A stretch of 64,000 nt of DNA from an uncultured Prevotella sp. (GTDB lineage Bacteria; Bacteroidota; Bacteroidia; Bacteroidales; Bacteroidaceae): positions 7,009-71,008 of the forward strand of contig CABSCZ010000005.1 of the NCBI GenBank assembly GCA_902476365.1, read 5' to 3'. Each line of letters opens with the position of its first letter. Positions within the stretch are counted from its first letter, which is position 1. Positions 11,885 to 60,054 of this stretch are shown one piece after another. Below the pieces are notes generated by a model. The model searched no databases. It had not been told where the DNA came from and worked only from the letters and a program-made list of their open reading frames with translations. A program made the position numbers and the translations under genes.

Positions 11885-11895
11885 ATCAGCAAGCG

Positions 11896-12741: not shown

Positions 12742-12744
12742 ATC

Positions 12745-39923: not shown

Positions 39924-40505
39924 ATGAGTGATCAGAGTACATTGGCACAAAAGTTACATGAGGGAGATCTAAAATCTTTTCAAAGGATTTATGAAAACTA
40001 TTATGAAATTTTGTGCCGTTTCGCTTTTCGTTTCACTCAGGATCATGGTTCTGCGGAAGAAATTGTTGATGATGTCATGTTCAGTCTTTGGGATCATCAT
40101 GAGGATGTAGTGATCACGCAAATTAGGCCTTATCTTTTTCGTGCCGTTAGGAATCTCTGTATAAATCATTTGAAATCTGTTGCCGTAAGATTCTATTCTG
40201 CTAAGAATATTTCTATAGACGAAGATGAAAAATTCCTTAATAGCCTTTTCCAGAATGATGAGCACCCCCTTGGTATTCTTTTGGAAAAAGAATTAGAGAT
40301 ACATTTCCAACAGGCTATCCATGAGCTTCCAGCAGAATGTAGACGCGTATTCTTAATGAGTAGATCGGAATGTTTAACTTATGAGGAAATAGCGCAGGAA
40401 CTTGGTATTTCTGTCAATACGGTTAAATACCACATGAAAAATGCTTTGAGAATATTGTCTAAGGAAATGGGACGTTACCTTATTCTATTATTAGCATTGA
40501 TATAA
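39924..40505 (+). CDS. ECF-subfamily RNA polymerase sigma-70 factor (PUL regulator)
   Basis: Sigma-2 (EEIVDDVMFSLW) and sigma-4 HTH (LTYEEIAQELGISVNTVKYHM) are present. It is directly followed by a FecR anti-sigma gene and a SusC with an STN domain. Confidence 0.85.
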   Translation: MSDQSTLAQKLHEGDLKSFQRIYENYYEILCRFAFRFTQDHGSAEEIVDDVMFSLWDHHEDVVITQIRPYLFRAVRNLCINHLKSVAVRFYSAKNISIDEDEKFLNSLFQNDEHPLGILLEKELEIHFQQAIHELPAECRRVFLMSRSECLTYEEIAQELGISVNTVKYHMKNALRILSKEMGRYLILLLALI

Positions 40506-40576
40506 CTTTTTTTTCGTTTTGATAGAAAAAATAAACTGATTGACTACCCATCCTTTTTCTAAACTTGACTATAAGT

Positions 40577-41566
40577 ATGATGACAGGCAATTTTGACATA
40601 GACAAACTTGTCGGCTTTTATCTTGATGGTAGTATCAAGGAAGACGACTTTGAAACGTTGAAGCGATGGACTTCAGCTTCAGAGGAAAACAAATCATATG
40701 TAAGGAACATTATAGAAATGTATTTCTCGCTCATGGTGCAGTCGGATAAAACATATTATAATAAACTGGCTGCATTCAGACGTCTTGAGGATCATATTCA
40801 AGAGACTAAAGCCCAATCTCCTTTCAAATGGAAAATATTCGTTGCAACAATAGCAGCTACTATCCTTTTCTTACTTATACCTTTTACTTTGTATGACCAA
40901 CATCGTCAACATCAAATGAATGATGTTACCACATTAAAGGTTCCTGATGGATCTCAGTTGAGTTGTGTGCTCCCAGATGGGACAAAAATAACATTAAATT
41001 CGGGATCCGAGTTGAGCTATAGCCGTGGTTTCGGTATTGTAAACCGAGATATTAGAATGAAAGGAGAAGGCTATTTTGACGTCGTGCATAAGGAGGATAT
41101 CCCATTTACGATAAATTCTAACTACATGAAGATGACAGACCTTGGTACGAAATTTTATTTTCGTGATTATAGCAATGAGACTCGTATCCGTGTTCGACTT
41201 GTTGATGGTAAGGTTTCTGTGCACAATAATATGATTAAAACAGATGATGTTTTTTTAAATCCAGGTGAGATCTTGATTTTGGATAAGGCAACAGGTAAAA
41301 TAATAACTACAATAGCGAACAAAGTTGCTCAGCAACAAGATGACTTAAACTTGATAGAGTTTGATAATTTGCCTCTTGCGCAAATTGCGGAAATCCTTTC
41401 TCGCATGTATGGCGTGAAGTTAAGTATCGTTCCTACATCTCAAAACAAGAGATTCTATGGGAGTTTTAATAGGAAAACGGATACCTTCCAAGATGTGTTG
41501 GACAATCTCGTTTCTACCAAGCGTTTACATTATAAACGATTAAAAGGTCAATATCTACTCTATTAA
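40577..41566 (+). CDS. FecR-family anti-sigma factor
   Basis: The ORF-track start is TTG at 40565. ATG at 40577 (MMTGNF...). TM segment IFVATIAATILFLLIPF. The C-terminal region resembles a FecR/DUF4974 domain. Confidence 0.8.
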   Translation: MMTGNFDIDKLVGFYLDGSIKEDDFETLKRWTSASEENKSYVRNIIEMYFSLMVQSDKTYYNKLAAFRRLEDHIQETKAQSPFKWKIFVATIAATILFLLIPFTLYDQHRQHQMNDVTTLKVPDGSQLSCVLPDGTKITLNSGSELSYSRGFGIVNRDIRMKGEGYFDVVHKEDIPFTINSNYMKMTDLGTKFYFRDYSNETRIRVRLVDGKVSVHNNMIKTDDVFLNPGEILILDKATGKIITTIANKVAQQQDDLNLIEFDNLPLAQIAEILSRMYGVKLSIVPTSQNKRFYGSFNRKTDTFQDVLDNLVSTKRLHYKRLKGQYLLY

Positions 41567-41754
41567 TGACGTGATCATATCACCATATAATAAGTTTGTA
41601 TAATTCATTAAAAATTTAAAGTCATGGAAAGGAAAAAATTAACGCCAGTTTAGTTTGGCACACTATGGGTACGCAATGGGCACGAATATAATCTTGACTT
41701 GTCATTGCGTAGGATTTATTCACAAAAAAGATAATCTAAAAAAAATGAAAAGCT

Positions 41755-44700
41755 ATGAGTAGATTTAACAAGAAAGTCGCAATAGTGATGTCTTTGTGTC
41801 TTATGTGCAGTCTTGCTTCATTCGCCCAGCATATTACGCTCAATGCAAGCAACATCACCGTTAAACAAGCTATGAATAGATTACAAAGGGCTTCGGGATA
41901 TTCATTCGTTTTTTATAGTTCCGATGTGAACACCTCTAAAAAGGTGAGTATCAATGCAGAAAATGAACCTTTGGCGCAAGTAATAGACCAGATCTTAACC
42001 GGTCAGGACTTAACCTATCAGATTAAGGGAAAATCTATCGTTATCAGTAAAAAGGAGACTTCCCCCCAGTCTTCAACAGCGATAAATCGAAAGGAGAATA
42101 AAAGCTCAAAAGCGGTACAGGGTCGCGTTATCGATTCAAACGGCGATCCTATCATAGGGGCTTCTATAATCATTAAAGGAAGAAAGGCACAGGGTACAAT
42201 AACGGATGCAGAGGGCCATTTCATGCTAACAAATGTTCCGAATAATGGTTCTCTTGAAATCTCTTATGTAGGCTTCTCTACTGTTGAGATTCCGGTTCAT
42301 GGAAAGACCTCATTTGAAATTACCATGAAAGAAGATGCCAAGGAATTGGATGAAGTGGTAGCAATAGGTTATGGTACACAAAGGAAAATAACATTGACTG
42401 GCTCTACCGCCAGTACAACAGGCAAGGCTTTGGAAGCAAATTCTTCTGTTAACCTTTCACAAGGTCTTGCTGGCCGTCTCTCAGGTGTTATCATCAATAA
42501 CCGCTCTGGCGAGCCAGGTAAAGATGATGCAATAATGTACATTCGCGGTCGTAGTACTTTAGGGAATAATAATCCATTGATTATCATTGATGGTATTGCC
42601 GGTCGTGATGCGGAGTTCAGTCGTTTATCTCCTGATGAAATAGAAAGCGTTACTGTCTTGAAAGATGCATCCGCAGCAATTTATGGCTCACGTTCAGCAA
42701 ATGGAGTTATCCTTGTGACTACGAAGAGGGGTACGAATAGTGGCAAGCCGACTATTGACTTTACCTATGATTTGGGACTCCAGCAACCAACTCGTTTGCC
42801 TGATATGGCAGATGCCATTCAATACGCTAAAGCAGTAAATGCTTCTAATGCTATTGATGGGGAAGGTCCACGTTATACAGACGAGGACATCCAAAAATTT
42901 GCAGACGGGAGTGACCCTATTCTTTTTCCTAATACGGATTGGTATGACGAAGTGATTAAAAATTTGTCAATTCAGCATAAGTATGGAGTGACAGCGCGTG
43001 GTGGTACAAGCCGATTTAACTATTTTGCTTCTTTAAATGGGCAGTACCAGGATGGTATCTATCGCAAGAGTGCCACCAATTATAAGCAGTATAATATGCG
43101 CACTAACCTTGATTTTATGATCACAGACTGGTTGAAAATAGGTTTCGATATGTCCGCTCGAGAGCAGCATAAGAACTATTCTGCTTTCCCCAGTGATGAT
43201 TATGGAATTTTTTACGTTACTCAGCGTGCACTTCCTACAGGTGCCCCCTATTATCCTGATGGGCGACTCAGAGGTGGACTGAATCCTGCCATAATGGTAC
43301 AGTCAACCACTGGTTATGACAAGACCACCATTCATTCTCTGAATACAACATTAACAGGAAGCATTGATCTTAACAAATGGGTTAAAGGTCTTACTCTGAC
43401 AGGTCATCTTGCTTATGATAAAAATAATAGTTTTGGCAAGAACTGGAAAACTCCTTGGAATTATTGGACTTATGATGAGGTGTCAAAGACTTTCACAGAG
43501 CAAACTTCAACTTATTGGCCATCCGCCCAGTTGGATGAATCCTATGTAGGTTGGCATCGTTTAACTTTAAATGGTCAGATTAACTATGATCGCGTATTGT
43601 TTAATTCTCATCATGTCAACTTAATGTTTGGCGCAGAACAGAGTGAATACCATCTTGACAGATTCAGTGCTGGCAGATCGCACTTTGGGAGTGATGCTTT
43701 AGATCAGTTGTTCGCAGGTGATGCTGACCATACATACTGGAGCAATACAGGAAGTGCAAATGAAACTGCTCGCCGTTCATTCTTCGGTCGTGTAAACTAT
43801 GATTACCTGAGCAAATATCTCATCTCATTCATCTGCCGTTGGGATGGGTCTGAGAATTTCCCAAAAGGAAAACGATGGGGATTCTTCCCTGGGGTATCTG
43901 CAGGCTGGCGTATTAGTGAGGAAAAATTTGTAAAAGACAAATGGGGAAGTTGGTTGTCTAACCTAAAGTTACGAGCTTCTTATGGTGAACAGGGTAATGA
44001 TAATATTGATCCGTTCCAATATATGACTACGTACAGCTATTCCACCTCTTCTTGGTATAGAACAAATTATATTACTATGCTAAATGGTGCTGATGCCAAT
44101 ATTATCGTCCCAGGTGTGGTTGGTAATCCTGATGTTACGTGGGAAGTTGCCAAGACTTGGAATATAGGCCTTGATGGCGATATTCTCAATGGCTTGTTCA
44201 ATTGGGAAATAGAATTCTTCCATACATCTCGATCAAATATTCTTGTCACCCGTAATGCTTCTGTTCCTTCTTATACTGGTCTGACCTCCTTGCCTGACGA
44301 GAATATCGGTAAAGTTACCAATCATGGATTTGAATTGCAACTGGGTCATCAGAAGCGTATCAATAAGGATTTTCTTTATAGTATAAAAGCTAATTTCCTC
44401 TATGCAAAGAATAAAATTGTTTACATGGATGAAACTCCATGGGGTGATGGTCATGAGTATTTAAATGCTACGGGACATCCGATGGGATCCCATCTCTATT
44501 ATCATGTCATTGGAATTAATAAAACACAGGATGACCTGACAAAATATCCCCAGATCTCTGGTGCCACATTGGGAGAATTCATTTATGAAGATATCGATGG
44601 AGATGGAAAGATCACCTCTTACGACCGAAAACGTGATGACTTAACAGCAGTTCCTCAGATCGTCTTTGGTACCACTTTCAACGCTCAATGGAAAAACTTT

Positions 44701-45102
44701 GATATTACAATGCTGTTGCAAGGGCAGGCACGTGCACATTTCTATGATGCTCCTTTGATCGACTGGCGCTCAAGCAACATCTATGCAAAGGCTGCAAAGA
44801 AAGCTTGGACTCTGGATCGTCCTGATTCTAATTATCCACGTATTGGACAGAGACATGGCAGTGCAGACTATTGGGCTAAGAACGCATCTTTTATCCGTCT
44901 GAAAAATGTAGAAATAGGCTATACATTGCCGAAGACATGGCTGGCACCTATAGGCGTAACAGCATGCCGCATTTATGTTGCGGGTTATAATCTGCTCACC
45001 TTTAGCGGACTTAAGGATGTCGATCCAGAGAATAGTGATGAAGAAACTCAAACTTATCCTCAGACTCGTGTATATAATTTTGGTGTTAAAATAACTTTCT
45101 AA
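41755..45102 (+). CDS. SusC/RagA-family TonB-dependent transporter with N-terminal STN (trans-envelope signalling) extension
   Basis: 1115 aa with a signal peptide. The STN-like segment (ITVKQAMNRLQRASGYSFVF...VIDQILTGQDLTYQIKGKSIVISKK) precedes the carboxypeptidase-regulatory-like domain and plug. C-terminal ...FGVKITF. Confidence 0.9.
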   Translation: MSRFNKKVAIVMSLCLMCSLASFAQHITLNASNITVKQAMNRLQRASGYSFVFYSSDVNTSKKVSINAENEPLAQVIDQILTGQDLTYQIKGKSIVISKKETSPQSSTAINRKENKSSKAVQGRVIDSNGDPIIGASIIIKGRKAQGTITDAEGHFMLTNVPNNGSLEISYVGFSTVEIPVHGKTSFEITMKEDAKELDEVVAIGYGTQRKITLTGSTASTTGKALEANSSVNLSQGLAGRLSGVIINNRSGEPGKDDAIMYIRGRSTLGNNNPLIIIDGIAGRDAEFSRLSPDEIESVTVLKDASAAIYGSRSANGVILVTTKRGTNSGKPTIDFTYDLGLQQPTRLPDMADAIQYAKAVNASNAIDGEGPRYTDEDIQKFADGSDPILFPNTDWYDEVIKNLSIQHKYGVTARGGTSRFNYFASLNGQYQDGIYRKSATNYKQYNMRTNLDFMITDWLKIGFDMSAREQHKNYSAFPSDDYGIFYVTQRALPTGAPYYPDGRLRGGLNPAIMVQSTTGYDKTTIHSLNTTLTGSIDLNKWVKGLTLTGHLAYDKNNSFGKNWKTPWNYWTYDEVSKTFTEQTSTYWPSAQLDESYVGWHRLTLNGQINYDRVLFNSHHVNLMFGAEQSEYHLDRFSAGRSHFGSDALDQLFAGDADHTYWSNTGSANETARRSFFGRVNYDYLSKYLISFICRWDGSENFPKGKRWGFFPGVSAGWRISEEKFVKDKWGSWLSNLKLRASYGEQGNDNIDPFQYMTTYSYSTSSWYRTNYITMLNGADANIIVPGVVGNPDVTWEVAKTWNIGLDGDILNGLFNWEIEFFHTSRSNILVTRNASVPSYTGLTSLPDENIGKVTNHGFELQLGHQKRINKDFLYSIKANFLYAKNKIVYMDETPWGDGHEYLNATGHPMGSHLYYHVIGINKTQDDLTKYPQISGATLGEFIYEDIDGDGKITSYDRKRDDLTAVPQIVFGTTFNAQWKNFDITMLLQGQARAHFYDAPLIDWRSSNIYAKAAKKAWTLDRPDSNYPRIGQRHGSADYWAKNASFIRLKNVEIGYTLPKTWLAPIGVTACRIYVAGYNLLTFSGLKDVDPENSDEETQTYPQTRVYNFGVKITF

Positions 45103-45114
45103 AGAATTTGCCTT

Positions 45115-46935
45115 ATGAAAAGATATATTTTGCTATGTAGTGTCGTTGTTGCTTTCTTGTTCAGTGCGTGTTCTGATGAGTTCCTGGACAAGAAGCCGTT
45201 AACAACATTGTCAGAAGATGATGTGTTTTCAAATGCAGCTTTATTGGAAGATTATGTGAACAGTTTCTATACTGTTGTCCCTGATCCATTTACAGAAGGC
45301 AATATTGCAGCAATCACAGATGAGGCTTTCTTCCGTTATGGTGGTTCTTCAACTAATTTTGTTGAAAGAGGGCAGATGACCCCAGATAAAGTTATGTATG
45401 ACTACGAAGGCGGATATTCTCATAACAGTAGGACTACGTTCTTAAATATTTGGAACCGCGCTTATACCGGAATCCGAAACATGAATCATGTGCTGTCTCG
45501 TATTGATGATTGTACCTTCCTTACTGAAGAAAAGAAAAGGCAGCTAAAAGGGGAGACATATTTTTTCCGCGCATGGGCGTATGGGAATCTTGTTGAACGC
45601 TTTGGAGGTGTACCCTTAATAACTAAACTTTATCAAGTGCAGGATACCTTTGGCGTCAAGCGTAGTACAATTGATGAATGCACAGAGTTTATCCTAAATG
45701 ATCTTCATGCCGCAGAAAGTCTGTTAGTTGACAAATCTACAGAACTTGGACGTGTTAGTAAGGATGTTTGCTTAGCTTATGAGTCACGTTACACCCTGAT
45801 GGTTGCCAGGAAGTTCTTTAATGACCCAGATAACCCTTCCGATAATTTTGTACATGGGAGGTATGACAAGGCAAAATGGACCCGTGCCTTGAATGCTGCC
45901 AAGGCAATTGTAGAACGTGCCGATAAGGATGGCGCATATTCGTTAAGCACTTATGACGATTATTGGAAGAATGTAAATTGTCCGGAAGTAATTTGGGGAA
46001 AATTCTTCTCTACAACTGCAGGCGATAAAGCTCAATTATACTATTCTCCAACATATTTTAATGGTTGGACATCTTGTGAGCCATGCGAAGCTTTAATGTT
46101 AGACTATGAAATGGCAGCAACTGGCTTGAAGCCTTTTGAAGAAGGCTCAGGATATGACCCACATAAGCCGTGGATGGGTCGTGATCCCCGTTTCTATAAG
46201 ACGATCTTGTATTCTGATTGCATATTCCGTGATTCAGTTTTCGATAATCATTATTATATTGATCAAAATGGTAAACGTATTGCAAGAGGTTTATTTTGGA
46301 GAAACGAGAGCGACGATACTGGATATGGTCTCAGAAAATGGCATATAGAAAATGCAGATATCTCAGAGACAGAAAATACCACGATTATGTTTCCATGGAT
46401 CCGTCTTGCAGAAATGTACCTAAATTATGCAGAGGCAGCTTATGAATGTGGTGATGAAGTCACATGCCGTAAGTATTTGAACAAAGTTCGTTCACGATCT
46501 GATGTTCAGATGCCTCCTGTTACGGATACAGGAACCTCCTTGTTTGATAGAATTGTCAATGAACGAAGAGTGGAACTCGCATTTGAACCCTTCAGATATT
46601 TTGATCTACGTCAATGGAAACTGGCACCTTTTTATGAGAACATTCCTGCAATGGGTTGTGTCGTGATAGAATACCCCGACCATTCTCTACAATATCGTAT
46701 TGCCCAAGTAAAAGGAGCCGAAACTAAGGAAAATATTGGGACTAATTGGGTTTATCAGCCTGGATATACCTACGACTATTCGTATAGAGGGAAGACCTAT
46801 ACCATAGATTACGGCTATTGCCACAGTATGCAGGGGACTCAGAAAAAGTTTACCAATAAACAATATCTCTATCCTATTCCTCAAAATGAAATAACAAAGA
46901 GTGAGGGTAGTTTGGAGCAAAATCCTGATTATTAA
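45115..46935 (+). CDS. SusD/RagB-family nutrient-binding lipoprotein
   Basis: Lipoprotein signal MKRYILLCSVVVAFLFSACSD. Typical SusD-like length; begins 13 nt after SusC. Confidence 0.85.
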   Translation: MKRYILLCSVVVAFLFSACSDEFLDKKPLTTLSEDDVFSNAALLEDYVNSFYTVVPDPFTEGNIAAITDEAFFRYGGSSTNFVERGQMTPDKVMYDYEGGYSHNSRTTFLNIWNRAYTGIRNMNHVLSRIDDCTFLTEEKKRQLKGETYFFRAWAYGNLVERFGGVPLITKLYQVQDTFGVKRSTIDECTEFILNDLHAAESLLVDKSTELGRVSKDVCLAYESRYTLMVARKFFNDPDNPSDNFVHGRYDKAKWTRALNAAKAIVERADKDGAYSLSTYDDYWKNVNCPEVIWGKFFSTTAGDKAQLYYSPTYFNGWTSCEPCEALMLDYEMAATGLKPFEEGSGYDPHKPWMGRDPRFYKTILYSDCIFRDSVFDNHYYIDQNGKRIARGLFWRNESDDTGYGLRKWHIENADISETENTTIMFPWIRLAEMYLNYAEAAYECGDEVTCRKYLNKVRSRSDVQMPPVTDTGTSLFDRIVNERRVELAFEPFRYFDLRQWKLAPFYENIPAMGCVVIEYPDHSLQYRIAQVKGAETKENIGTNWVYQPGYTYDYSYRGKTYTIDYGYCHSMQGTQKKFTNKQYLYPIPQNEITKSEGSLEQNPDY

Positions 46936-47006
46936 GTTTCAATAGTGGGGATAGGTAGATTCTTTGCCTGTCCCCATGTATCCAACATCAATTCTATTAT
47001 AAGCAT

Positions 47007-48368: not shown

Positions 48369-48380
48369 AGTCAAATAATT

Positions 48381-50225: not shown

Positions 50226-50231
50226 AAAGAA

Positions 50232-52052: not shown

Positions 52053-52134
52053 CGTTTTGTCAATGTACAATGCTTTCTTTCTGTCTAAGAAGAAAAATAA
52101 ATAATACTCAATAACAATTTATAGAAATAATCAT

Positions 52135-52968
52135 ATGATGACATTAAGATTAACAGAACAACCTTCCAAGTATCGGCACTTGGAAAAAAAATCAGTAGAT
52201 GAACTGGTAACATTAATCAATCAAGAAGATCAAACTGTTCCTTTAGCTATTCAAAAGGTCCTTCCAGACCTTGCAAGGCTGATTGAAGCTATTGAAGAGA
52301 AACTAAAGAATGGGGGCAGAATGTTCTATTGCGGATGTGGAACTGGAGGACATTTAGCAGTTGATGATGTCCTGGAGTTACCAAACACTTATGGCATTGA
52401 TCCGGAAATGATACAATGCGTTCTTGCTGGGGGAGTAGAGAACTTGGTCCTTGATTTAGAAGAAAAGGAAGACGACACAGAAGAAGGATGGCAAACCTTG
52501 AAAAGTAAGCATATCTCCGAGCAGGATATAGTAGTTGGAATTTCGGCGAGTGGAACTACTCCGTATGTATTGGCCACACTCAAAAAATGCAAAGAAAATG
52601 GTATTACAACTGGATCGTTTGTCAATAATCCTGATGCCCCAATATCTAAATATAGCGACTATCCTGTAGAAGTCATTACAGGACCAGAGTTCGTCACAGG
52701 TAGCACCCGTATGAAAGCTGGGACTTCCCAGAAACTCATCTGTGACATGATCTCTACTACCTTGATGATCAGACTCGGTCGCGTGGAAGATAATATGATG
52801 GTCAATGCAAATTTGATTAATGACAAAGTAATTGATCGCTCTGTCAGGATGCTTATGGAGCGCAATCCAGAACTATCAGACTATGACTACTGTAAGAAAA
52901 TGATAGAGAAATGTGGCAGTGTAAAAAAGACTGAAGCATACTTGAAACAACAACAAATTATCAAATGA
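52135..52968 (+). CDS. murQ: MurQ-like SIS-domain sugar-phosphate etherase (second, divergent copy)
   Basis: It aligns with the first copy at 11069..11884 ([29 protein letters not shown]). The glycine-rich motif differs: [24 protein letters not shown] versus [24 protein letters not shown]. Confidence 0.7.
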   Translation: [277 protein letters not shown]

Positions 52969-53813
52969 AACTAATTGCAGACAGCGGATCGACAAAGACA
53001 GATTGGGCATGTTTACAGCATGACAAAACCTGCATTCGTTTTACGAGTGCAGGTTATAATCCCAATTATATCACGGCAGAGTACATGTCAAAAGATATCC
53101 AAAATTCCTTGCCTCTTTGCATGAATAAGGCAGAAATAACAGAGATATATTTCTATGGAGCAGGTGTAACAGAATTACAATTTCCATTTGTTCGCTCTGT
53201 GCTCCATGGCATTTTTCCAAATGCAAGCACTATCTTTGTTGAAATGGACTTATTGGCAAGTGCCCGTGCTTTGTTAGGTGACCGTCCTGGATTTGCAGCA
53301 ATTCTTGGTACTGGAACAAACAGTTGTCTCTATGATGGTCAAAAAATAGCTCTCAACATTGATTCTTTAGGATTTATTTTGGGGGATGAAGGGAGTGGAG
53401 CCTATATGGGCAAACAATTAATGATTGATTATATCCGACATAACATGCCCAATGATGTCTGGAAAATGGTTGCTGATTATGTTAAGATGAGTGGTGATGA
53501 AATCATTGATCAGATATATACGAAGCCGTATCCAAATAGATGGTGTGCTCATTTTAGCAAGTTTATAGGAGATCATCTTCAGGATGAAAATCCCTATTTT
53601 AGAAATCTTGTTGAAAGATCGTTTTATGATCTTTTTGAAAAGATTATCACGCATTATCCAAACTATCAAGCCTATGAGTTCAATTGTGTAGGATCAATTG
53701 CCTATTGTTTTCATGACTACTTGGAAAAGGTGGTTTCTTCTTTTGGCATGAAAATGGGAAAGATTATAAGATATCCTATTGATGGTTTAGTAGACTACCA
53801 CAGTATTCATTAA
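52965..53813 (+). CDS. murK: BadF/BadG/BcrA/BcrD-type MurNAc/GlcNAc kinase-like (second copy)
   Basis: Motifs MKLIADSGSTKTDW and ILGTGTNSC are present. It is collinear with the first copy at 11896..12741. The start overlaps the murQ2 stop (ATGA). Confidence 0.7.
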   Translation: MKLIADSGSTKTDWACLQHDKTCIRFTSAGYNPNYITAEYMSKDIQNSLPLCMNKAEITEIYFYGAGVTELQFPFVRSVLHGIFPNASTIFVEMDLLASARALLGDRPGFAAILGTGTNSCLYDGQKIALNIDSLGFILGDEGSGAYMGKQLMIDYIRHNMPNDVWKMVADYVKMSGDEIIDQIYTKPYPNRWCAHFSKFIGDHLQDENPYFRNLVERSFYDLFEKIITHYPNYQAYEFNCVGSIAYCFHDYLEKVVSSFGMKMGKIIRYPIDGLVDYHSIH

Positions 53814-53829
53814 TAAAAAATGCTAAGAA

Positions 53830-55050
53830 ATGAGAACCAATTCATATCTGATACCTTTGATTTATATTGGTGCCATGTTTTTTACCGTGGGCTTTACCCT
53901 TGGCATTAACAGTTATCTGATACCACTCCTTCAGACAGCCTTAAAAATATCATCTGGATACTCTTATTTAGTATTGGCGGCAAATTTCTCTGCATTCCTT
54001 GCATTTTCATATCCAGCAACTCTTGTCATAAAAAAAGTTGGATACAAGCGAACGATGGCACTATCATTCTTATGCTTTTCCATTGCCTTCCTTCTCTTTA
54101 TTCCTTCAGCTTTCATGAAATCGTTCAGTTTGTTTCTGATAGCTTCTTTTATCAGTGGAACAGCAAATGCCATCTTACAATCTGCTATCAATCCTTATGT
54201 CACAATTCTGGGACCTATAGAAAGTGCAGCTCGGAGAATGAGCTTAATGGGATGCTGTAATGCTCTTGCTTGGTCAATAGCCCCCATTGCTTTAACTTGG
54301 ATGATAGGAAAGCCTTTGCAAGATGTAGGACTGATGGATATAAAGCGTCCTTTTGCATTAATAGCTTTCTTTTCTATCGGCATGGCAATCGTCATGCTAA
54401 AGTCCCCTCTCCAAGAAATTAAGGCTACCGGTGAAGAAAACATAGAAGATTGTCCTTATGCCGCCAATAAAACAAGTATTTGGCAGTTTCCTCACTTGAT
54501 ATTAGGAGGGATAACGTTGTTTCTTTATGTTGGTGTTGAGACTGTGGCGGATGCTACGACTGTAGACTATGCCAACAGTTTAGGACTTGCCGACCCAACT
54601 CATTATTCCATTTACCCCAGTTTGGGTATGGTAACAGGATATATTGGCGGTATTGTATTGATTCCCAAGTATCTCTCACAAATCAATGCGTTGAGGATTT
54701 GTTCCGCCATTGCTATTATTGGCTCCTTGTTCGTTATATTTTTGCCTGCGAACATATCCATTTATTGTGTCTATTTCATTTCCTTAGGATGTTCTTTAAT
54801 GTATCCATCCATTTGGCCATTGGCTTTGACTGATTTAGGAAAGTTTACCAAAACAGGTTCAGCGATTCTAGTTACGAGTATTGTAGGTGGAGCTGTTATT
54901 CCAACGCTTTTTGGGTTTCTAAAAGACGCTTATGGTAATCAGCATGCTTATTGGATATGCATTCCTTGCTTTATAGCTGTTATGTTGTATGCTTTTGTAG
55001 GATGTAAGATCCGTATAAAGTCTCAGTCATATAAAATCAAAAATCAATGA
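53830..55050 (+). CDS. MFS sugar permease (glucose/galactose-FucP-NagP-like subfamily)
   Basis: 406 aa with about 12 predicted TM segments. It is unrelated to the AmpG-like permease at 12745..14091. The stop overlaps the next gene's start. Confidence 0.7.
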   Translation: MRTNSYLIPLIYIGAMFFTVGFTLGINSYLIPLLQTALKISSGYSYLVLAANFSAFLAFSYPATLVIKKVGYKRTMALSFLCFSIAFLLFIPSAFMKSFSLFLIASFISGTANAILQSAINPYVTILGPIESAARRMSLMGCCNALAWSIAPIALTWMIGKPLQDVGLMDIKRPFALIAFFSIGMAIVMLKSPLQEIKATGEENIEDCPYAANKTSIWQFPHLILGGITLFLYVGVETVADATTVDYANSLGLADPTHYSIYPSLGMVTGYIGGIVLIPKYLSQINALRICSAIAIIGSLFVIFLPANISIYCVYFISLGCSLMYPSIWPLALTDLGKFTKTGSAILVTSIVGGAVIPTLFGFLKDAYGNQHAYWICIPCFIAVMLYAFVGCKIRIKSQSYKIKNQ

Positions 55051-56255
55051 AATTTCTAAATTTATTATTTCTATTAGTGATGTTCTTTGTCTCCATCAGG
55101 GGCAATGCCTGTACGTCTGCTATCATATCCGGGAGATTGACTGCAGACGGAAGACCTATATTATGGAAGTCGCGAGATACAGAAACATGGGCAAACAGTA
55201 TTGGATATTATCAAGGGACTAAGTATCGATATGTGGCTATTGTTGATAGCAAGGAATATGCAAGTCCCCATGAAGTATGGGGCGGGACTAATGAAGCAGG
55301 TTTCTCTATTATTAATACTTTATCCTATAATCTAACAGAAGACAAAGAAAGTAAGGACTGGCATCATAATGGCATCATCATGAAAATGGCATTGGAGACT
55401 TGTGCTACCGTTGCTGAGTTTAAACATTTATTGGACACGCTCTCCCGCCCTATGCATGTTGCGACTAATTATGGGGTCATTGACGCAAAGGGTGGAGCTG
55501 CATACTTTGAGGTTGGATCTGCTCATTATACTTTTTGGGATGTCAATCGGTCTGAAGAAGGTTTCCTCGTACGAACGAATTTTTCCTTCAGTGGGAAAGA
55601 GGATCATGGGTTGGGCTATGTCCGTTATAATGAGGCATATCATCAAATTCGCCTGAAAAGCGTATCTCAAAATATTACGCCTCAATGGCTTCTTCAAAAA
55701 CTATCCCGTTCTTTCCGTAATCCTCTCATGGGCATTGATTTAACAAGTGGTCATTACAATTCGCCCCAGACCAAAGGATGGTTTGTCGAGCAAGACTTTA
55801 TCGCCCGCAGGACATCTTCATGTGCTGTTGCCATCCAAGGGGTGAAGCCGACAGAAAGCCCAGAATTAACTACGATCTGGGTAGTATTGGGATATCCACC
55901 TGTCACACCTGCAGTTCCAGTATGGGTGAAAGATGCATACCTAATCCCGCAAATCTTAGGATATAGCGATGATATAAAGACTTCGTTTTCATCCTGGAGA
56001 GCTCACCAATTACAGCAAAAGGTGTATTCTTATCATTCAGGAGATGATGCTAACCGTTACTTTCATTGGGATCTGCTTTGGCGACCAGATGGAACCGGAC
56101 TTCTTCAGAAGAATGAAACCTATGAGAAAGATATGATGAAAACATATGAGCCCGTTGTCAAGGCGATGTATTCCAACGGTAAATTGGATATCGAAAAAGT
56201 GAAAAAAATATATGAATACGTTGATAAAGAGCTATGGAAGGGCATGGAGCGATGA
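55047..56255 (+). CDS. secreted N-terminal-Cys Ntn hydrolase, C69-dipeptidase-like (CBAH/acid-ceramidase superfamily cannot be excluded)
   Basis: The signal peptide ends ...SIRGNA|CTSAIISG. Post-Cys pattern TADGRPILWKSRD resembles the C69 pattern C-T-T-I-L-V-G-K-x-A-S-x-D-G-S-x-x-x-A-R-N-E-D. Confidence 0.5.
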   Translation: MKFLNLLFLLVMFFVSIRGNACTSAIISGRLTADGRPILWKSRDTETWANSIGYYQGTKYRYVAIVDSKEYASPHEVWGGTNEAGFSIINTLSYNLTEDKESKDWHHNGIIMKMALETCATVAEFKHLLDTLSRPMHVATNYGVIDAKGGAAYFEVGSAHYTFWDVNRSEEGFLVRTNFSFSGKEDHGLGYVRYNEAYHQIRLKSVSQNITPQWLLQKLSRSFRNPLMGIDLTSGHYNSPQTKGWFVEQDFIARRTSSCAVAIQGVKPTESPELTTIWVVLGYPPVTPAVPVWVKDAYLIPQILGYSDDIKTSFSSWRAHQLQQKVYSYHSGDDANRYFHWDLLWRPDGTGLLQKNETYEKDMMKTYEPVVKAMYSNGKLDIEKVKKIYEYVDKELWKGMER

Positions 56256-57682
56256 GACATAATTCTTTGAATGACAATTTTCGATCATATATACTTGTTG
56301 CATTTCTAATCTTATCATTTACAATGCAAGGGCAGACATTAAAAGGAGGTATTTCCTTTAAGATGTTGCGACAAATAGAGAATGCCCAGCCCAAAAGCCC
56401 TACACTGAAGGGTCTTCAGCATTCAATGGCATCCAACAATATTGACAGCCTTGCCCTAAACGCTTCTCGTTTGGAGCAAACAAATCCCCATTTTATGTAT
56501 GAAACCGTAAAACAGAATATCCAAAATCAATATGAGAGTGGACGCTGCTGGTGCTTTACTGGACTAAATGTGCTCAGGGGCGCTTTTGCCAAAGCACACC
56601 AGGATACAATGACCGTAGAATATTCTCGTGCTTACTTGTACTTTTATGACCAATTGGAAAAGTCCAACTTGATGCTTCAAGGTTGCATCGATACCGCCTA
56701 TAAACCAATGGATGATACTCGTGTTACATTCTTTTTTAAGAAGCCTCTTCATGATGGCGGTACATTCTGTGGCATCATTGACTTGATTCGCAAATATGGT
56801 CTTGTTCCTGCCTCTGCACAGCAAGAAACCTATCAAGCAAATCACAATAAAAAGATCACGCAGCTATTAAATAGGAAATTACGGATGTTTGGACTCGAAT
56901 TACGCAGGATGGTCCATGAAGGGCAAACAGAAACATCCATCACTAAGCGAAAGACAGAGATGTTAGGAATAGTCTACAATATGCTTTCTTTAGCTGTAGG
57001 AACTCCTGTGAAGCATTTCAAATATGCCTTTAAAAATGCACAAGGCCAACCGGTAACACAGGAAAGAGAATATACTCCTATGACGTTTTATAAGGCGACC
57101 ATAGGAGAGTTGAATTATGATGATTACATTATGGTAATGAATGATCCTCGGCGACCATATTACAAGACCTACAAGGTTCTATATGCACGCCATCTCTATG
57201 ATGGACATGACTGGAAATATCTTAACCTCCCAATGAAAGACATTGAAACTATAGCCGTTGCAAGTATCAAAGATGGTATAAAGATGTATAGTTCTTATGA
57301 TTCCGAGAAACAACGTAATAACAGTACTGCTTATTGTGATTTAGACAATTATAATTACGACAGTCTTTTCGGAACTTCCTTCCAGATGAGCAAGGCTGAT
57401 CGTATCTCTACCTATGATAGTGGCTCAACCCATGCTATGGCATTGACTGCTGTTGACCTCGATGCACAGGAGAACCCTATAAGATGGAAAGCAGAAAACA
57501 CCTTTGGCCCTGGCTTCGGCGTCAATGGAGGATATGTTATTATGAGTAACCGATGGTTTGAAGCATATATGTTTCGTTTGGTAGCCTTGAAAAAATATGC
57601 CCCAACATCCTTAGTAAAGGCATACGAGCAAGAACCTACTGGGGTCTATCCTGAAGATCCATTGTTTGGGGAAGATCGATGA
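56252..57682 (+). CDS. pepC: aminopeptidase C / bleomycin hydrolase (peptidase C1B), secreted
   Basis: Active-site motif QNQYESGRCWCFTGLN. ATG at 56252 gives a signal (MRHNSLNDNFRSYILVAFLILSFTMQGQ). It overlaps the upstream stop by 4 nt. Confidence 0.8.
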   Translation: MRHNSLNDNFRSYILVAFLILSFTMQGQTLKGGISFKMLRQIENAQPKSPTLKGLQHSMASNNIDSLALNASRLEQTNPHFMYETVKQNIQNQYESGRCWCFTGLNVLRGAFAKAHQDTMTVEYSRAYLYFYDQLEKSNLMLQGCIDTAYKPMDDTRVTFFFKKPLHDGGTFCGIIDLIRKYGLVPASAQQETYQANHNKKITQLLNRKLRMFGLELRRMVHEGQTETSITKRKTEMLGIVYNMLSLAVGTPVKHFKYAFKNAQGQPVTQEREYTPMTFYKATIGELNYDDYIMVMNDPRRPYYKTYKVLYARHLYDGHDWKYLNLPMKDIETIAVASIKDGIKMYSSYDSEKQRNNSTAYCDLDNYNYDSLFGTSFQMSKADRISTYDSGSTHAMALTAVDLDAQENPIRWKAENTFGPGFGVNGGYVIMSNRWFEAYMFRLVALKKYAPTSLVKAYEQEPTGVYPEDPLFGEDR

Positions 57683-59966: not shown

Positions 59967-60054
59967 TTATAATGATCCATAGTATAATCTTTATATGACT
60001 TCGTTCTTAATAATGTTGAAAAAATAATTATTTACGATCTCAGAAGAAACTTCC

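What the first reader, a model, noticed from the sequence alone, without database searches (positions are those of the whole stretch)
39924..57682. ECF-sigma/anti-sigma-controlled PUL whose cargo genes point to peptidoglycan/MurNAc (or amino-sugar lipid) scavenging rather than a plant or host polysaccharide
The locus starts with a standard SusC(STN)/SusD signalling unit. Its enzyme set is unusual for a PUL: two GH20 beta-hexosaminidases, a neutral-ceramidase-family amidase, a MurQ-like etherase, a MurK-like kinase, a NagP-like MFS permease, a secreted Cys-Ntn C69-like dipeptidase and aminopeptidase C. Together these cover GlcNAc removal, MurNAc phosphorylation, lactyl-ether cleavage and stem-peptide degradation. 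No canonical Amidase_2/3 MurNAc-L-Ala amidase is present, so the ceramidase-family or Ntn hydrolase may fill that role. I do not know of a described SusCD-based peptidoglycan utilisation locus. An alternative reading is glycosphingolipid or sulfatide catabolism (ceramidase, hexosaminidases, adjacent sulfatases).
Basis: partly seen in the sequence, partly recalled or inferred. Interest (0 to 1): 0.85.

Follow-up and report, generated by a model that had tools for sequence, protein, structure and literature searches.

The report
Cell-wall glycopeptide salvage locus in Prevotella
A gut Prevotella-type bacterium carries a horizontally acquired import-and-digest gene cluster, shared by many rumen and gut Bacteroidales, that most likely feeds on microbial cell-wall fragments; these are probably bacterial peptidoglycan but possibly the pseudomurein wall of methanogens, and no such locus appears to have been described.

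Summary
Window 39924-57682 is one co-directional operon: ECF sigma, FecR anti-sigma, SusC (with STN), SusD, a neutral-ceramidase-fold amidase (CER), two GH20s, a MurQ-type etherase, a MurK-type kinase, a NagP/GluP-type MFS, a Cys-Ntn hydrolase and aminopeptidase C.

It belongs to a large undescribed PUL family. In 45 full-flank genome loci, GH20a occurs in 45, GH20b in 43 and the MurQ-type gene in 44. CER is fused to GH20 in at least 25 loci. The Ntn hydrolase is fused to PepC in 4.

The window also holds a canonical high-GC murQ-murK cluster. The PUL copies form separate conserved clades. They keep the catalytic residues but change the positions that define MurNAc specificity in T. forsythia MurK.

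Related loci carry no recurrent murein-specific domain. Some carry pseudomurein-binding repeats on C39 or transglutaminase-type cysteine peptidases, which is the architecture of methanogen-virus lysins.

Estimates:
- Bacterial peptidoglycan fragment salvage, about 0.45.
- Pseudomurein, about 0.30.
- The glycosphingolipid/sulfatide reading is not supported; the sulfatases belong to a separate convergent PUL.

I found no prior description.

The parts
39924..40505 (+). ECF-type sigma factor, 193 aa
   Evidence: Sigma70_r4_2 60 bits, Sigma70_r2 39.2 bits, Sigma70_ECF 22.8 bits. A TAnnTTTG-type motif (TATCTTTG) lies about 20 nt upstream, read directly from the sequence.
40565..41566 (+). FecR-type anti-sigma factor. 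The metagenome gene call starts at 40577.
   Evidence: FecR 46.4 bits and FecR_C 51.2 bits. Gene call in L001.
41755..45102 (+). SusC-type TonB-dependent transporter with an N-terminal STN signalling domain, 1115 aa
   Evidence: STN 57.2, CarbopepD_reg_2 63.6, Plug 58.8 bits. TIGR04056 952.7 bits against a cutoff of 368.
45115..46935 (+). SusD-type outer-membrane lipoprotein, 606 aa
   Evidence: SusD_RagB 162 bits, SusD-like_3 99.7 bits. The N-terminus ends in ...LFSAC, read as a lipobox by eye.
47007..48368 (+). CER: exported amidase with a neutral-ceramidase catalytic-domain fold, 453 aa, lacking the ceramidase C-terminal domain. Proposed sugar-peptide amidase.
   Evidence: PF04734 29.6 bits, below the cutoff. 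Profile A3 vs PDB 2zws E = 5e-11, with HTHS, CHPV and GNVDP in register. Model pLDDT 92; Foldseek 2zws/4wgk E about 1e-25, TM 0.66-0.69. Invariant H116, H118, H210, E373, Y414, Y416. Fused to GH20 in at least 25 loci.
48381..50225 (+). GH20a: exported exo-beta-N-acetylhexosaminidase, 614 aa
   Evidence: Glyco_hydro_20 363.6 bits plus GH20b domain and CHB_HEX_C_1. Best PDB match 6q63, E = 3e-129. GGDE catalytic motif read in the translation.
50232..52052 (+). GH20b: second exported GH20, 606 aa, a distinct ortholog group conserved alongside GH20a
   Evidence: Glyco_hydro_20 389.7 bits. PDB 6q63 E = 3e-151. Both GH20s are present in 43 of 45 full loci.
52135..52968 (+). MurQ2: cytoplasmic MurNAc-6P-etherase-family lyase/hydrolase of the PUL-specific clade, 277 aa
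   Evidence: NF003915 307.2 bits (cutoff 168), NF009222 264.1 (cutoff 255), TIGR00274 256 (below 302). PDB 4lzj E = 6.5e-56. Catalytic Glu pair conserved; clade motifs GxGTGG[KRH]L, E[LVI]PNTYG and ENLV..LEE.ED in about 70 loci.
52965..53813 (+). MurK2: cytoplasmic BadF/ASKHA sugar kinase of the MurK family, PUL-specific clade, 282 aa
   Evidence: PDB TfMurK 8oqw E = 3e-62 and 8ow9 E = 5.7e-62. D95, N119, D141 and G67 conserved; N34, Y35, V68, T69, M94, D133 and S134 differ from TfMurK and from window MurK1.
53830..55050 (+). Inner-membrane MFS sugar permease of the NagP/GluP/FucP type, 406 aa
   Evidence: MFS_1 72.6 bits. TIGR01272 gluP 204 bits (cutoff 202.55); NagP_SO3503 246 bits, below 625. 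Related to the housekeeping AmpG/MurT-like MFS only at superfamily level.
55047..56255 (+). Exported Cys-Ntn hydrolase (sequence class C45/AAT; closest fold C69 dipeptidase), 402 aa. Cys22 follows the signal peptide.
   Evidence: AAT 30.5 bits (cutoff 23.2). C45_proenzyme 48.3 bits, below 85. NCBI names homologs 'C45 family peptidase'. Cys22 invariant in 38 homologs. Model pLDDT 88; Foldseek best 5img/5iau C69 dipeptidase E = 4e-11, TM 0.57-0.61. Fused to PepC in L036, L040, L041 and L048.
56234..57682 (+). Exported aminopeptidase C / bleomycin-hydrolase-type C1B cysteine peptidase, 482 aa. It overlaps the Ntn gene by 22 nt.
   Evidence: Peptidase_C1_2 373.5 bits. Hydrophobic N-terminal segment. 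Fusion partner of the Ntn domain elsewhere.
11069..14091 (-). Context, not part of the PUL: canonical high-GC housekeeping MurQ1 (about 11069-11887), MurK1 (11896-12741) and AmpG/MurT-like MFS (12745-14091)
   Evidence: Pfam. MurK1 keeps the TfMurK motifs NPFF, AGCTP, SDM and NVSPLG. MurQ1 keeps GTSGRL, PPTFG and the Arg.

Best explanation
This is a trans-envelope-signalled SusCD utilisation locus for soluble fragments of a peptide-bearing amino-sugar cell wall, most likely bacterial peptidoglycan (GlcNAc-MurNAc-peptides).

Proposed mechanism:
1. The STN domain of SusC signals substrate occupancy to the FecR anti-sigma factor, which releases the ECF sigma factor to transcribe the operon. The domains are shown here; the signalling is inferred from known ECF-linked PULs.
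2. SusCD imports oligomeric fragments. This Prevotellaceae variant encodes no surface endo-enzyme, so it depends on fragments released by other organisms or by the host.
3. In the periplasm, the two GH20s remove non-reducing beta-HexNAc. One may act as an exo-muramidase, which is speculative. The zinc amidase with a ceramidase fold cuts the amide between the sugar's carboxyl arm and the stem peptide. This is analogous to NagZ followed by AmiE in B. subtilis, and is inferred from the gene fusions and obligate co-occurrence.
4. The Cys-Ntn hydrolase and PepC degrade the released peptide. This is inferred from their fusion in other loci.
5. The NagP/GluP-type MFS imports the monosaccharides.
6. 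MurK2 phosphorylates O6 and MurQ2 removes the 3-O substituent by elimination and hydration, giving GlcNAc-6P. The catalytic residues are shown to be conserved; the substrate is inferred.

The remodelled MurK2 and MurQ2 pockets would then reflect either dual GlcNAc/MurNAc use or a modified muramic acid.
For: - Family assignments.
- Catalytic residues retained in MurQ2 (E81, E112) and MurK2 (D95, N119, D141, G67).
- MurQ2 passes two NCBIfam MurNAc-6P etherase subfamily cutoffs.
- Even distant GKRP-type homologs keep MurNAc-6P etherase activity.
- The function set matches the B. subtilis murQ-murP-amiE-nagZ-namZ operon and the T. forsythia murTKQ cluster.
- CER-GH20 and CER-GH20-GH20 fusions occur in at least 25 loci, including the cultured Hallella multisaccharivorax.
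- MurQ2 is present in 44 of 45 full loci.
- The permease is of a monosaccharide type.
- The C45 family also occurs in a SusCD-M14-GltS locus, which ties it to imported peptides and glutamate release.
- From general knowledge, murein is by far the most abundant such polymer in guts.
Against: - The PUL kinase clade replaces exactly the TfMurK residues that accommodate the lactyl group and the N-acetyl group. It also adds acidic residues (D133, E70) near where the lactyl carboxylate would lie.
- The PUL etherase clade loses canonical MurQ motifs, including a conserved Arg.
- A canonical murQ/murK pair coexists in the same window.
- No LysM, SPOR, Amidase_2/3, NlpC/P60, GH23/25/73 or NamZ domain recurs in about 80 loci.
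- Some loci carry pseudomurein-binding repeats.
- PepC-type peptidases suit all-L peptides better than D-amino-acid stems (general knowledge).
- Bacteroides, Phocaeicola, Parabacteroides and Flavobacteriia are absent from the 80 best genome hits.
Confidence: 0.45

Rival explanations
1. The PUL family targets pseudomurein, the wall of Methanobacteriales such as Methanobrevibacter in gut, rumen and termites.

Proposed steps:
- GH20s remove beta-1,3-GlcNAc or GalNAc.
- CER cuts the amide between N-acetyl-L-talosaminuronic acid (TalNAcA) and the all-L peptide.
- The Ntn hydrolase and PepC digest the gamma/epsilon-linked L-peptide.
- The unit TalNAcA-(1->3)-GlcNAc is, like MurNAc, a 3-O-substituted GlcNAc. 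It would be imported, 6-phosphorylated by MurK2 and split by MurQ2 through elimination of the O3 substituent.
- In fuller variants, surface Pei-like cysteine peptidases and DUF4015/GHL10 proteins would open the sacculus.
For: - PMBR (PF09373) scores above the Pfam cutoff in L010 P650 (30.2 vs 24.9) and in L022 PMBR+Peptidase_C39_2 (28.8). It scores 23.2 in L025. It gives hits at E<=1 in 6 of 19 transglutaminase-core proteins; of 10 scanned individually, three scored 21.1, 15.5 and 13.0 bits. All hits are N-terminal to the Cys-peptidase core.
- These are the only two known pseudomurein-lysin architectures: PeiP/PeiW are PMBR+C71, and PeiR is PMBR+C39. PeiR's own PMBRs score only 12.4 bits.
- hhalign of the TGase family against a Pei alignment gives E = 4e-4 over 157 collinear columns.
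- A controlled PMBR HMM hit none of about 1800 unlabelled ORFs.
- The PMB domain bound pseudomurein cells and not intact murein or chitin.
- Pseudomurein has beta-1,3 bonds, only L-amino acids and gamma/epsilon isopeptide bonds.
- The MurK2 and MurQ2 pockets are remodelled while a canonical pair coexists.
- All carrier habitats are methanogenic.
- No recurrent murein-specific domains were found.
Against: - The window itself has no PMBR protein.
- PMBR is detectable in only a minority of loci and mostly at modest scores. It is absent from 29 of 30 BACON/P650 proteins.
- hhalign probability is only 35%.
- The PMB domain also bound lysozyme-treated bacterial spheroplasts.
- C39 domains also serve as murein endolysin peptidases in actinophages.
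- There is no precedent for MurK or MurQ acting on a disaccharide.
- The permease is of a monosaccharide type.
- No TalNAcA catabolic genes were identified.
- Bacteroidales live in methanogenic habitats anyway.
Confidence: 0.3
2. The locus targets another HexNAc-rich glycoconjugate, such as chitooligosaccharides, de-N-acetylated or otherwise modified amino-sugar polymers, or spore-cortex muramic delta-lactam. In that case MurK2 acts mainly as a GlcNAc-type kinase, and MurQ2 and CER act on an unrecognised 3-O- or N-substituted sugar.
For: - NagP-like MFS, BadF-type kinase and a SIS enzyme resemble the Shewanella-type GlcNAc pathway, though the NagK and NagB-II models give only weak hits.
- GH18 occurs in 4 loci, and GHL10 or GH78 in some variants.
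- D133 in MurK2 sits near the position where GlcNAc/glucose kinases carry an acidic residue.
- L015 has CER and GH20 without MurQ.
Against: - MurQ2 scores 307 bits on MurQ models against 26 bits on NagB-II, and it is near-obligate in the family (44 of 45 loci).
- Peptidases and an amidase are integral and gene-fused, which points to a glycopeptide.
- No chitinase is encoded in the window.
Confidence: 0.15
3. This is the first reader's alternative: glycosphingolipid or sulfatide catabolism, using the ceramidase, the hexosaminidases and the adjacent sulfatases.
For: The fold is that of neutral ceramidase. GH20s can act on gangliosides (general knowledge). Sulfatase genes lie nearby.
Against: - The sulfatases are on the opposite strand, in their own SusC-SusD locus.
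- The ceramidase C-terminal domain is absent, and identity to ceramidases is only about 15%.
- MurQ/MurK-type genes and peptidases have no role in this pathway.
- The family is dominated by rumen, termite and digester bacteria.
- CER is fused to GH20, not to lipid-handling domains.
Confidence: 0.03

Closest known systems
Bacillus subtilis muropeptide-rescue operon murQ-murR-murP-amiE-nagZ-namZ
   Same: It has the same logical set of functions: an exo-beta-GlcNAc-ase, an exo-amidase that frees the peptide from the sugar, a second exo-hexosaminidase, sugar uptake with 6-phosphorylation, and a MurQ etherase.
   Different: Every catalytic family except MurQ is replaced. GH20 stands in for GH3 NagZ and GH171 NamZ. 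A ceramidase-fold amidase stands in for AmiE. An MFS plus a kinase stand in for the PTS MurP. Uptake across an outer membrane is by SusCD under ECF/anti-sigma control. MurQ here belongs to a separate clade.
Tannerella forsythia murTKQ / AmpG / NamZ1 peptidoglycan-scavenging cluster
   Same: It is a Bacteroidota MurNAc route using a non-PTS transporter, the BadF-type kinase MurK and MurQ. The window has an orthologous housekeeping cluster at 11069-14091.
   Different: The PUL copies are paralogs with changed specificity residues. The transporter is of the NagP/GluP type rather than the AmpG/MurT type. The PUL adds SusCD, GH20s, CER and peptidases, and has no NamZ or lytic transglycosylase.
ECF-sigma/anti-sigma-regulated SusCD PULs of Bacteroides (host-glycan type)
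   Same: It shares the ECF sigma, the FecR anti-sigma and a SusC with an N-terminal STN domain, followed by SusD and exo-glycosidases.
   Different: The cargo includes cytoplasmic MurQ/MurK paralogs, a ceramidase-fold amidase and peptidases. Most family members lack the ECF pair.
Pseudomurein endoisopeptidases PeiP/PeiW (PMBR+C71) and PeiR (PMBR+C39) of methanogen viruses
   Same: Related loci, though not the window, encode PMBR + transglutaminase-core and PMBR + C39_2 cysteine peptidases with the same domain order.
   Different: These are bacterial lipoprotein-type genes inside a PUL. The catalytic domains hit Transglut_core and C39_2, not C71. PMBR scores are mostly modest, and no activity is known.
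Neutral ceramidase (P. aeruginosa 2ZWS, human 4WGK)
   Same: The catalytic-domain fold and the aligned HxH, His and GNxxP motifs are shared.
   Different: Identity is about 15%. The C-terminal domain is absent, the protein is about 200 residues shorter, it is fused to or adjacent to GH20, and it sits in a glycopeptide context. A lipid substrate is unlikely.
Flavobacterium johnsoniae chitin utilisation locus
   Same: It is a SusCD locus with GH20, and with GH18 in some relatives, for a GlcNAc polymer (listing; general knowledge).
   Different: The window has no chitinase, and it carries the MurQ/MurK paralogs, the amidase and the peptidases.

Membership tests
SusC/SusD polysaccharide utilisation locus | Adjacent SusC-family TonB-dependent transporter and SusD-family lipoprotein, with co-directional degradative genes | tested here: met
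   TIGR04056 952.7 bits (cutoff 368); SusD_RagB 162 bits; 12-nt gap; 8 downstream co-directional genes.
ECF-sigma/anti-sigma trans-envelope signalling PUL | ECF sigma, FecR-type anti-sigma, and a SusC carrying an N-terminal STN domain | tested here: met
   Sigma70_r2 and r4_2; FecR and FecR_C; STN 57.2 bits at residues 52-100 of SusC. The signalling itself was not testable.
MurQ (MurNAc-6P etherase) | Score above the curated family cutoffs | tested here: inconclusive
   Subfamily models NF003915 (307 vs 168) and NF009222 (264 vs 255) are passed. The equivalog TIGR00274 is not (256 vs 302).
MurQ (MurNAc-6P etherase) | Catalytic Glu pair (H. influenzae Glu89/Glu120; numbering recalled from memory, alignment shown here) | tested here: met
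   E81 and E112 are invariant and aligned to the SECPP and VEGAED glutamates.
MurQ (MurNAc-6P etherase) | Canonical motifs GTSGRL, PPTFG and the conserved Arg in GG..A[IL]R | tested here: not met
   All PUL-type proteins (about 70) have GTGG[KRH]L, PNTYG and ENLV[LMYQ]. Window MurQ1 and HiMurQ have the canonical forms. The structural role of these positions could not be checked.
MurQ (MurNAc-6P etherase) | Release of D-lactate from MurNAc-6P | not testable with these tools
   Requires an enzyme assay.
MurK (Bacteroidota MurNAc kinase) | Homology to TfMurK, with catalytic D95 and sugar-binding N119, D141 and G67 | tested here: met
   8oqw E = 3e-62; invariant D95, N119, D141 and G67.
MurK (Bacteroidota MurNAc kinase) | MurNAc-specificity residues S133-P134-L135, T94 and I69, plus the F34/F35 N-acetyl pocket (PMC10465942) | tested here: not met
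   MurK2 has D133-S134-L135, M94, T69 (followed by E70) and N34/Y35. The same pattern holds in nearly all of the ~20 PUL-linked kinases examined. Window MurK1 is canonical.
Neutral/alkaline ceramidase | Pfam PF04734 above the gathering score | tested here: not met
   29.6 vs 32.1 bits, N-terminal 150 residues only.
Neutral/alkaline ceramidase | Catalytic-domain fold and metal-site motifs | tested here: met
   Foldseek 2zws/4wgk E about 1e-25, TM 0.66-0.69. The profile aligns HTHS, CHPV and GNVDP. H116, H118, H210, E373, Y414 and Y416 are invariant. Metal binding is itself inferred.
Neutral/alkaline ceramidase | C-terminal ceramidase domain and ceramide hydrolysis | tested here: not met
   The protein is 453 aa against 630-690 aa and has no C-terminal domain hit. 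Activity was not testable.
GH20 beta-N-acetylhexosaminidase | GH20 catalytic domain with the D-E pair, plus the N-terminal GH20b domain | tested here: met
   363.6 and 389.7 bits; GGDE present in both translations; PDB 6q63.
Peptidase C45 (isopenicillin-N acyltransferase-like) versus C69 dipeptidase | Family HMM above cutoff; N-terminal nucleophile Cys | tested here: inconclusive
   Pfam AAT 30.5 bits (cutoff 23.2). NCBIfam C45_proenzyme 48.3 bits (below 85). No C69 (PF03577) hit. Cys22 is invariant. The closest fold is a C69 dipeptidase (E = 4e-11), ahead of C45 IAT (E = 1.6e-7). It is safest to call it a Cys-Ntn hydrolase.
Peptidase C1B (aminopeptidase C / bleomycin hydrolase) | Full-length Peptidase_C1_2 match | tested here: met
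   373.5 bits over profile positions 2-437 of 438.
Pei-type pseudomurein lysin (PMBR + cysteine peptidase) | N-terminal PMBR repeats plus a C-terminal Cys-His-Asp peptidase | tested here: not met
   There is no such gene in the window. In related loci the feature is met in L022 (PMBR 28.8 + C39_2 75.9), nearly met in L025, and weakly met in the TGase family.
Canonical murein-hydrolase/binding toolkit (Amidase_2/3, NlpC/P60, LysM, SPOR, GH23/25/73/171) | Presence of at least one such domain in the locus | tested here: not met
   None is in the window locus. None is among the recurrent families in related loci (only the top 25 of 66 families were visible).

The most novel reading that the evidence does not exclude
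This is the first bacterial utilisation system for archaeal pseudomurein. Under this reading, rumen and gut Bacteroidales harvest methanogen cell walls with Pei-like PMBR cysteine peptidases, GH20s and a ceramidase-fold TalNAcA-peptide amidase. Neofunctionalised MurK and MurQ paralogs then split the TalNAcA-(1->3)-GlcNAc linkage in the cytoplasm by 6-phosphorylation and beta-elimination, rather than by a glycosidase.
Probability: 0.3. Interest if true: 0.93.

Novelty: new variant of a known kind. Interest (0 to 1): 0.77.

Why it matters
**If the substrate is murein.** This would be the first SusCD-based system for harvesting exogenous peptidoglycan fragments. It would give a genetic handle on who removes NOD- and TLR-active muropeptides from the gut and rumen. 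It would also define new enzyme roles: a ceramidase-fold MurNAc-peptide amidase, GH20s acting on muropeptides, and a second MurK/MurQ lineage.

**If the substrate is pseudomurein.** This would reveal the unknown catabolic route for the methanogen wall, new enzymes that attack methanogens (relevant to mitigating rumen methane), and a new way of cleaving a glycosidic linkage.

**Either way.** The family is widespread in livestock and human gut Bacteroidales and is currently unannotated. Cultured carriers exist (Hallella multisaccharivorax DSM 17128, Prevotella sp. KH2C16), so the question can be tested directly.

Tried and rejected
1. I suspected the large BACON proteins were rich in PMBR-like repeats. 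Pfam found PMBR in only 1 of 30. hhalign against PeiP gave E = 0.22. A controlled iterative HMM did not recruit them. I dropped the idea.
2. A PeiP-only HMM was too narrow. The search for PMBR homologs returned only 5 Pei proteins.
3. hhalign of the TGase family against PeiP alone was insignificant (E = 0.017, probability 2.7%). It improved only moderately with a Pei alignment.
4. P650 has no phage match. The L022 C39 domain matches actinophage lysin A, which shows that C39 alone does not discriminate between wall types.
5. The DUF4015 profile hits only an uncharacterised PDB entry.
6. The H. influenzae MurQ structure paper could not be retrieved, so the role of the lost Arg is unknown.
8. A NagB-II / Shewanella-type GlcNAc pathway reading of the SIS protein is rejected: 26 bits against 307 bits for MurQ models.
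9. The sulfatide/glycosphingolipid reading is rejected.
10. A chimeric-assembly explanation for the GC step is rejected. The same junction occurs in independent metagenome contigs and in RUG143.
11. No tRNA or Rfam family is present in the window.

Full report
**1. Observation**

The region 39924-57682 holds 12 co-directional ORFs. Spacing ranges from a 22-nt overlap to 188 nt.

- ECF sigma and FecR anti-sigma.
- SusC with STN, CarboxypepD_reg and Plug domains, plus TIGR04056 at 952.7 bits.
- SusD.
- Two GH20s, at 363.6 and 389.7 bits.
- A MurQ-family SIS protein: NF003915 at 307.2 bits (cutoff 168) and NF009222 at 264.1 (cutoff 255), but the TIGR00274 equivalog at 256, below its 302 cutoff.
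- A BadF-type kinase that Pfam barely sees (27.4 vs 31.5) but which matches the solved T. forsythia MurNAc kinase at E = 3e-62.
- A GluP/NagP-type MFS.
- A Cys-Ntn hydrolase and aminopeptidase C at 373.5 bits.

The 'ceramidase' falls below Pfam's cutoff (29.6 vs 32.1). A 48-sequence family profile nevertheless hits P. aeruginosa neutral ceramidase at E = 5e-11, with the HTHS, CHPV and GNVDP motifs in register. A pLDDT-92 model matches the ceramidase structures at E about 1e-25 and TM 0.66-0.69. The protein lacks the ceramidase C-terminal domain.

The Ntn protein is C45/AAT by HMM and by NCBI naming. Its pLDDT-88 model is closest to a C69 cysteine dipeptidase (E = 4e-11, TM about 0.6), ahead of C59 and C45 structures. 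Cys22, directly after the signal peptide, is invariant.

By eye, SusD, CER, both GH20s, the Ntn protein and PepC have N-terminal export signals, and MurQ2 and MurK2 do not. No signal-peptide predictor was available.

**2. Surroundings**

GC falls from about 0.52 to about 0.39 at roughly 39.7 kb and stays low to the end of the window. This is not an assembly artefact. The same junction, with the same GDPD-esterase flank, occurs in independent human-gut metagenome contigs (L001, L002). The same GC step occurs in Prevotella RUG143 (L016) and in Hallella multisaccharivorax (L018). The locus therefore looks horizontally acquired in Prevotellaceae.

They sit behind their own SusC-SusD pair (58484-64000) and belong to a separate convergent locus.

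The window also contains a canonical high-GC cluster on the minus strand, resembling the T. forsythia murTKQ region: MurQ1 (about 11069-11887), MurK1 (11896-12741), an AmpG/MurT-like MFS (12745-14091) and a GT2.

**3. A conserved PUL family**

The ceramidase-like protein (CER) has hundreds of homologs of about 450 aa in Bacteroidales. Neighbourhoods of distant homologs (about 47% identity) keep the order SusC-SusD-CER-GH20-GH20-MurQ-like.

A scan of species-representative genomes found 159 relatives, of which I examined the best 80. The nearest are:
- Prevotella RUG143, 93% identity.
- Prevotella sp. KH2C16, 78%.
- Hallella multisaccharivorax DSM 17128, 74%.

The remainder are Bacteroidales from rumen, omasum, horse, reindeer, chicken, human gut, termite and anaerobic-digester samples. 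They include Paludibacter, Proteiniphilum, Dysgonomonadaceae, Rikenellaceae/Alistipes, Cryptobacteroides and Muribaculaceae. No Bacteroides, Phocaeicola, Parabacteroides or Flavobacteriia appear among these 80.

Occupancy in the 45 loci with full flanks:

| Component | Loci (of 45) |
|---|---|
| GH20a | 45 |
| GH20b | 43 |
| PUL-type MurQ | 44 |
| SusC | 44 |
| DUF4015 or GHL10 (putative glycanase) | 34 |
| Large BACON protein or its 650-aa relative | 33 |
| Transglutaminase-core protein | 19 |
| MurK2 | 13 (lower bound) |
| MFS | 14 (lower bound) |
| Ntn hydrolase + PepC | 4 |

The MurK2 and MFS counts are lower bounds because the 10-kb flank often ends inside the large BACON gene.

Gene fusions tie the parts together:
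- CER-GH20 single ORFs occur in at least 25 loci, including the cultured Hallella isolate.
- CER-GH20-GH20 triple fusions occur in 3 loci.
- Ntn-PepC fusions occur in 4 loci.

The window's version is a 'minimal' Prevotellaceae variant. It has no surface endo-acting candidates, which implies reliance on fragments that are already soluble.

**4. The MurQ and MurK copies are specialised paralogs**

*Kinase.* The alignment with TfMurK is ungapped over the sugar site. MurK2 keeps the catalytic D95 and the sugar-binding N119, D141 and G67. The structural paper identifies the features that define MurNAc use:
- S133-P134-L135. The lactyl group sits on P134, and its carboxylate is water-bridged to S133.
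- T94 and I69.
- An N-acetyl pocket formed by F34, F35 and F137.

The paper also argues that an acidic residue at position 69 would repel MurNAc.

MurK2 has D133-S134-L135, M94, T69 followed by E70, and N34/Y35. This signature (GYNPNY, YGAGVTE, MDLLA, N[IV]DS[LC]G) is shared by nearly all of the ~20 PUL-linked kinases across families. MurK1 in the same window keeps the canonical motifs.

*Etherase.* MurQ2 keeps the catalytic glutamate pair (E81, E112). All of the roughly 70 PUL-type proteins carry GxGTGG[KRH]L, E[LVI]PNTYG and ENLV..LEE.ED. Canonical MurQ has GTSGRL, PPTFG and a conserved Arg in these places. I could not retrieve the HiMurQ structure paper to interpret these positions.

*Conclusion.* These are active enzymes with the same chemistry (6-phosphorylation, then elimination and hydration at C3). 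They belong to an old, dedicated lineage with a remodelled pocket for the substituents at C2 and C3.

**5. Which substrate?**

*The case for bacterial peptidoglycan.*
- The function set reproduces the B. subtilis murQ-murP-amiE-nagZ-namZ logic and the T. forsythia MurNAc route.
- MurQ2 passes two curated MurQ subfamily thresholds.
- Etherase activity is robust across very distant GKRP homologs.
- The permease is of a monosaccharide type.
- Murein is the dominant polymer of this kind in guts (general knowledge).
- A kinase that must handle both GlcNAc and MurNAc could explain part of the pocket remodelling. This is inference.

*The case for pseudomurein.*
- In L010, the 649-aa protein next to MurQ2 hits the pseudomurein-binding repeat above the Pfam cutoff (30.2 vs 24.9).
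- L022 encodes PMBR (28.8 bits) plus Peptidase_C39_2. L025 has the same architecture with PMBR at 23.2 bits.
- 6 of 19 transglutaminase-core proteins give PMBR hits at E<=1 N-terminal to the catalytic core; of 10 scanned individually, three scored 21.1, 15.5 and 13.0 bits.
- These two architectures are exactly those of the only known pseudomurein lysins. PeiP/PeiW are PMBR + transglutaminase-like C71, and PeiR is PMBR + C39. PeiR's own PMBRs score just 12.4 bits.
- Profile-profile comparison of the TGase family with a Pei alignment gives E = 4e-4 and probability 35% over 157 collinear columns.
- A controlled PMBR HMM hit none of about 1800 unlabelled ORFs.
- The PMB domain bound pseudomurein cells and not intact murein or chitin. 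It did bind lysozyme-treated spheroplasts.
- Pseudomurein has beta-1,3 bonds, only L-amino acids and gamma/epsilon isopeptide bonds. That suits PepC-type and Ntn peptidases.
- Its TalNAcA-(1->3)-GlcNAc unit is, like MurNAc, a 3-O-substituted GlcNAc. This gives a chemical rationale for recruited MurK and MurQ paralogs. This last point is inference.
- No murein-specific binding or hydrolase domain recurs in these loci.

*Against pseudomurein.*
- The window has no PMBR protein.
- PMBR is detectable in only a minority of loci.
- C39 domains also act as murein endolysin peptidases.
- There is no precedent for MurK or MurQ acting on a disaccharide.
- No TalNAcA catabolic genes are evident.

*Estimates.* Murein fragments about 0.45, pseudomurein about 0.30, another HexNAc glycoconjugate (including spore-cortex or chitin-type substrates) about 0.15, and glycosphingolipid about 0.03.

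**6. Mechanism**

*Shown here:*
- Domain content and gene order.
- Family-wide conservation and gene fusions.
- Retained catalytic residues.
- Signal-peptide pattern, judged by eye.

*Inferred:*
1. STN, FecR and the ECF sigma factor provide trans-envelope induction.
2. SusCD imports oligomeric glycopeptides.
3. In the periplasm, the GH20s trim beta-HexNAc and CER cleaves the sugar-peptide amide.
4. The Ntn hydrolase and PepC digest the peptide. The Ntn family also sits in a SusCD-M14-GltS locus, which links it to imported peptides and to glutamate release.
5. The MFS imports the sugars.
6. MurK2 and MurQ2 convert the 3-O-substituted sugar to GlcNAc-6P.

**7. Comparison with known systems, and novelty**

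Full-text searches found no paper describing a SusCD locus for murein or pseudomurein, and none describing the ceramidase + GH20 + etherase combination.

The system is a PUL, and it uses MurK/MurQ chemistry, both of which are known. The substrate class, the ceramidase-fold amidase (often fused to GH20), the dedicated MurK/MurQ lineages and the Pei-like accessory peptidases are new. I therefore rate it a new variant of a known kind, with high interest. It would be more interesting still if the pseudomurein reading holds.

Noticed in passing
window 11069-15567 (-): A canonical high-GC housekeeping cluster: MurQ1, MurK1, an AmpG/MurT-like MFS and a GT2. It resembles the T. forsythia murTKQ region, and its MurK and MurQ keep the canonical specificity motifs.
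   Followed up: yes
window ~39600-39900, and to the window end: An abrupt GC drop from about 0.52 to about 0.39 that persists through both downstream PULs. The same step occurs in L016 (Prevotella RUG143) and L018 (Hallella), suggesting horizontal acquisition. No tRNA or integrase was seen at the junction.
   Followed up: partly
window 57782-58316: A roughly 535-bp element bounded by 97-nt inverted repeats (91% complementary, 341 nt apart), with no ORF over 73 aa. It lies between the two convergent PULs and could be a MITE-like or invertible element.
   Followed up: partly
window 58484-59876 (-): A sulfatase ORF that lacks the first ~93 positions of the Pfam model, with a 108-aa ORF just upstream in another frame. 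This is probably one frameshifted sulfatase gene.
   Followed up: no
window 58484-64000 (-): A separate convergent locus: SusC (runs off the window end), SusD 61600-63267, and two sulfatases. This is the source of the 'adjacent sulfatases' in the finding.
   Followed up: partly
window 15679-25832 (-) and 34989-38328 (-): Another SusC/SusD pair (20411-23722 and 18871-20433) is flanked by a GDPD+DUF4996 phosphodiesterase, DUF218, PAP2 and a PLD-type protein. Two EstA-Ig-like esterase genes, one fused to GDPD, lie at 34989-38328. This may be a glycerophosphodiester (teichoic-acid or lipid head-group) scavenging system.
   Followed up: no
window 5664-7652 (-): A third, more divergent GH20 (111 bits) outside any obvious PUL.
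   Followed up: no
L018:9992-13129; L036:9920-14464; L041; L048; about 22 further loci: CER-GH20 fusion ORFs of about 1000-1045 aa, and CER-GH20-GH20 triple fusions of about 1515 aa, in related genomes.
   Followed up: yes
L036:16103-18589; L040; L041; L048: Single 828-866-aa proteins that fuse the C45/Ntn domain to the C1B (PepC) peptidase. In the window the same two genes overlap by 22 nt.
   Followed up: yes
L010:15960-17909; L022:12802-13983; L025:5185-6351: Bacteroidales PUL proteins with pseudomurein-binding repeats. One is a 649-aa protein of unknown function. Two are PMBR + Peptidase_C39_2 proteins with the same architecture as the methanogen-virus lysin PeiR.
   Followed up: yes
L098/L099:1-9257: A different SusC-SusD locus carrying Peptidase_M14, a glutamate:Na+ symporter and a homolog of the window's Ntn hydrolase. 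It may be a glutamyl-peptide utilisation locus.
   Followed up: no
L015:10001-17190 and L022/L025/L043: Variants in which CER and GH20 are combined with GH78 rhamnosidase and/or GHL10 proteins (one with a T9SS sorting domain). L015 lacks a MurQ-type gene.
   Followed up: partly
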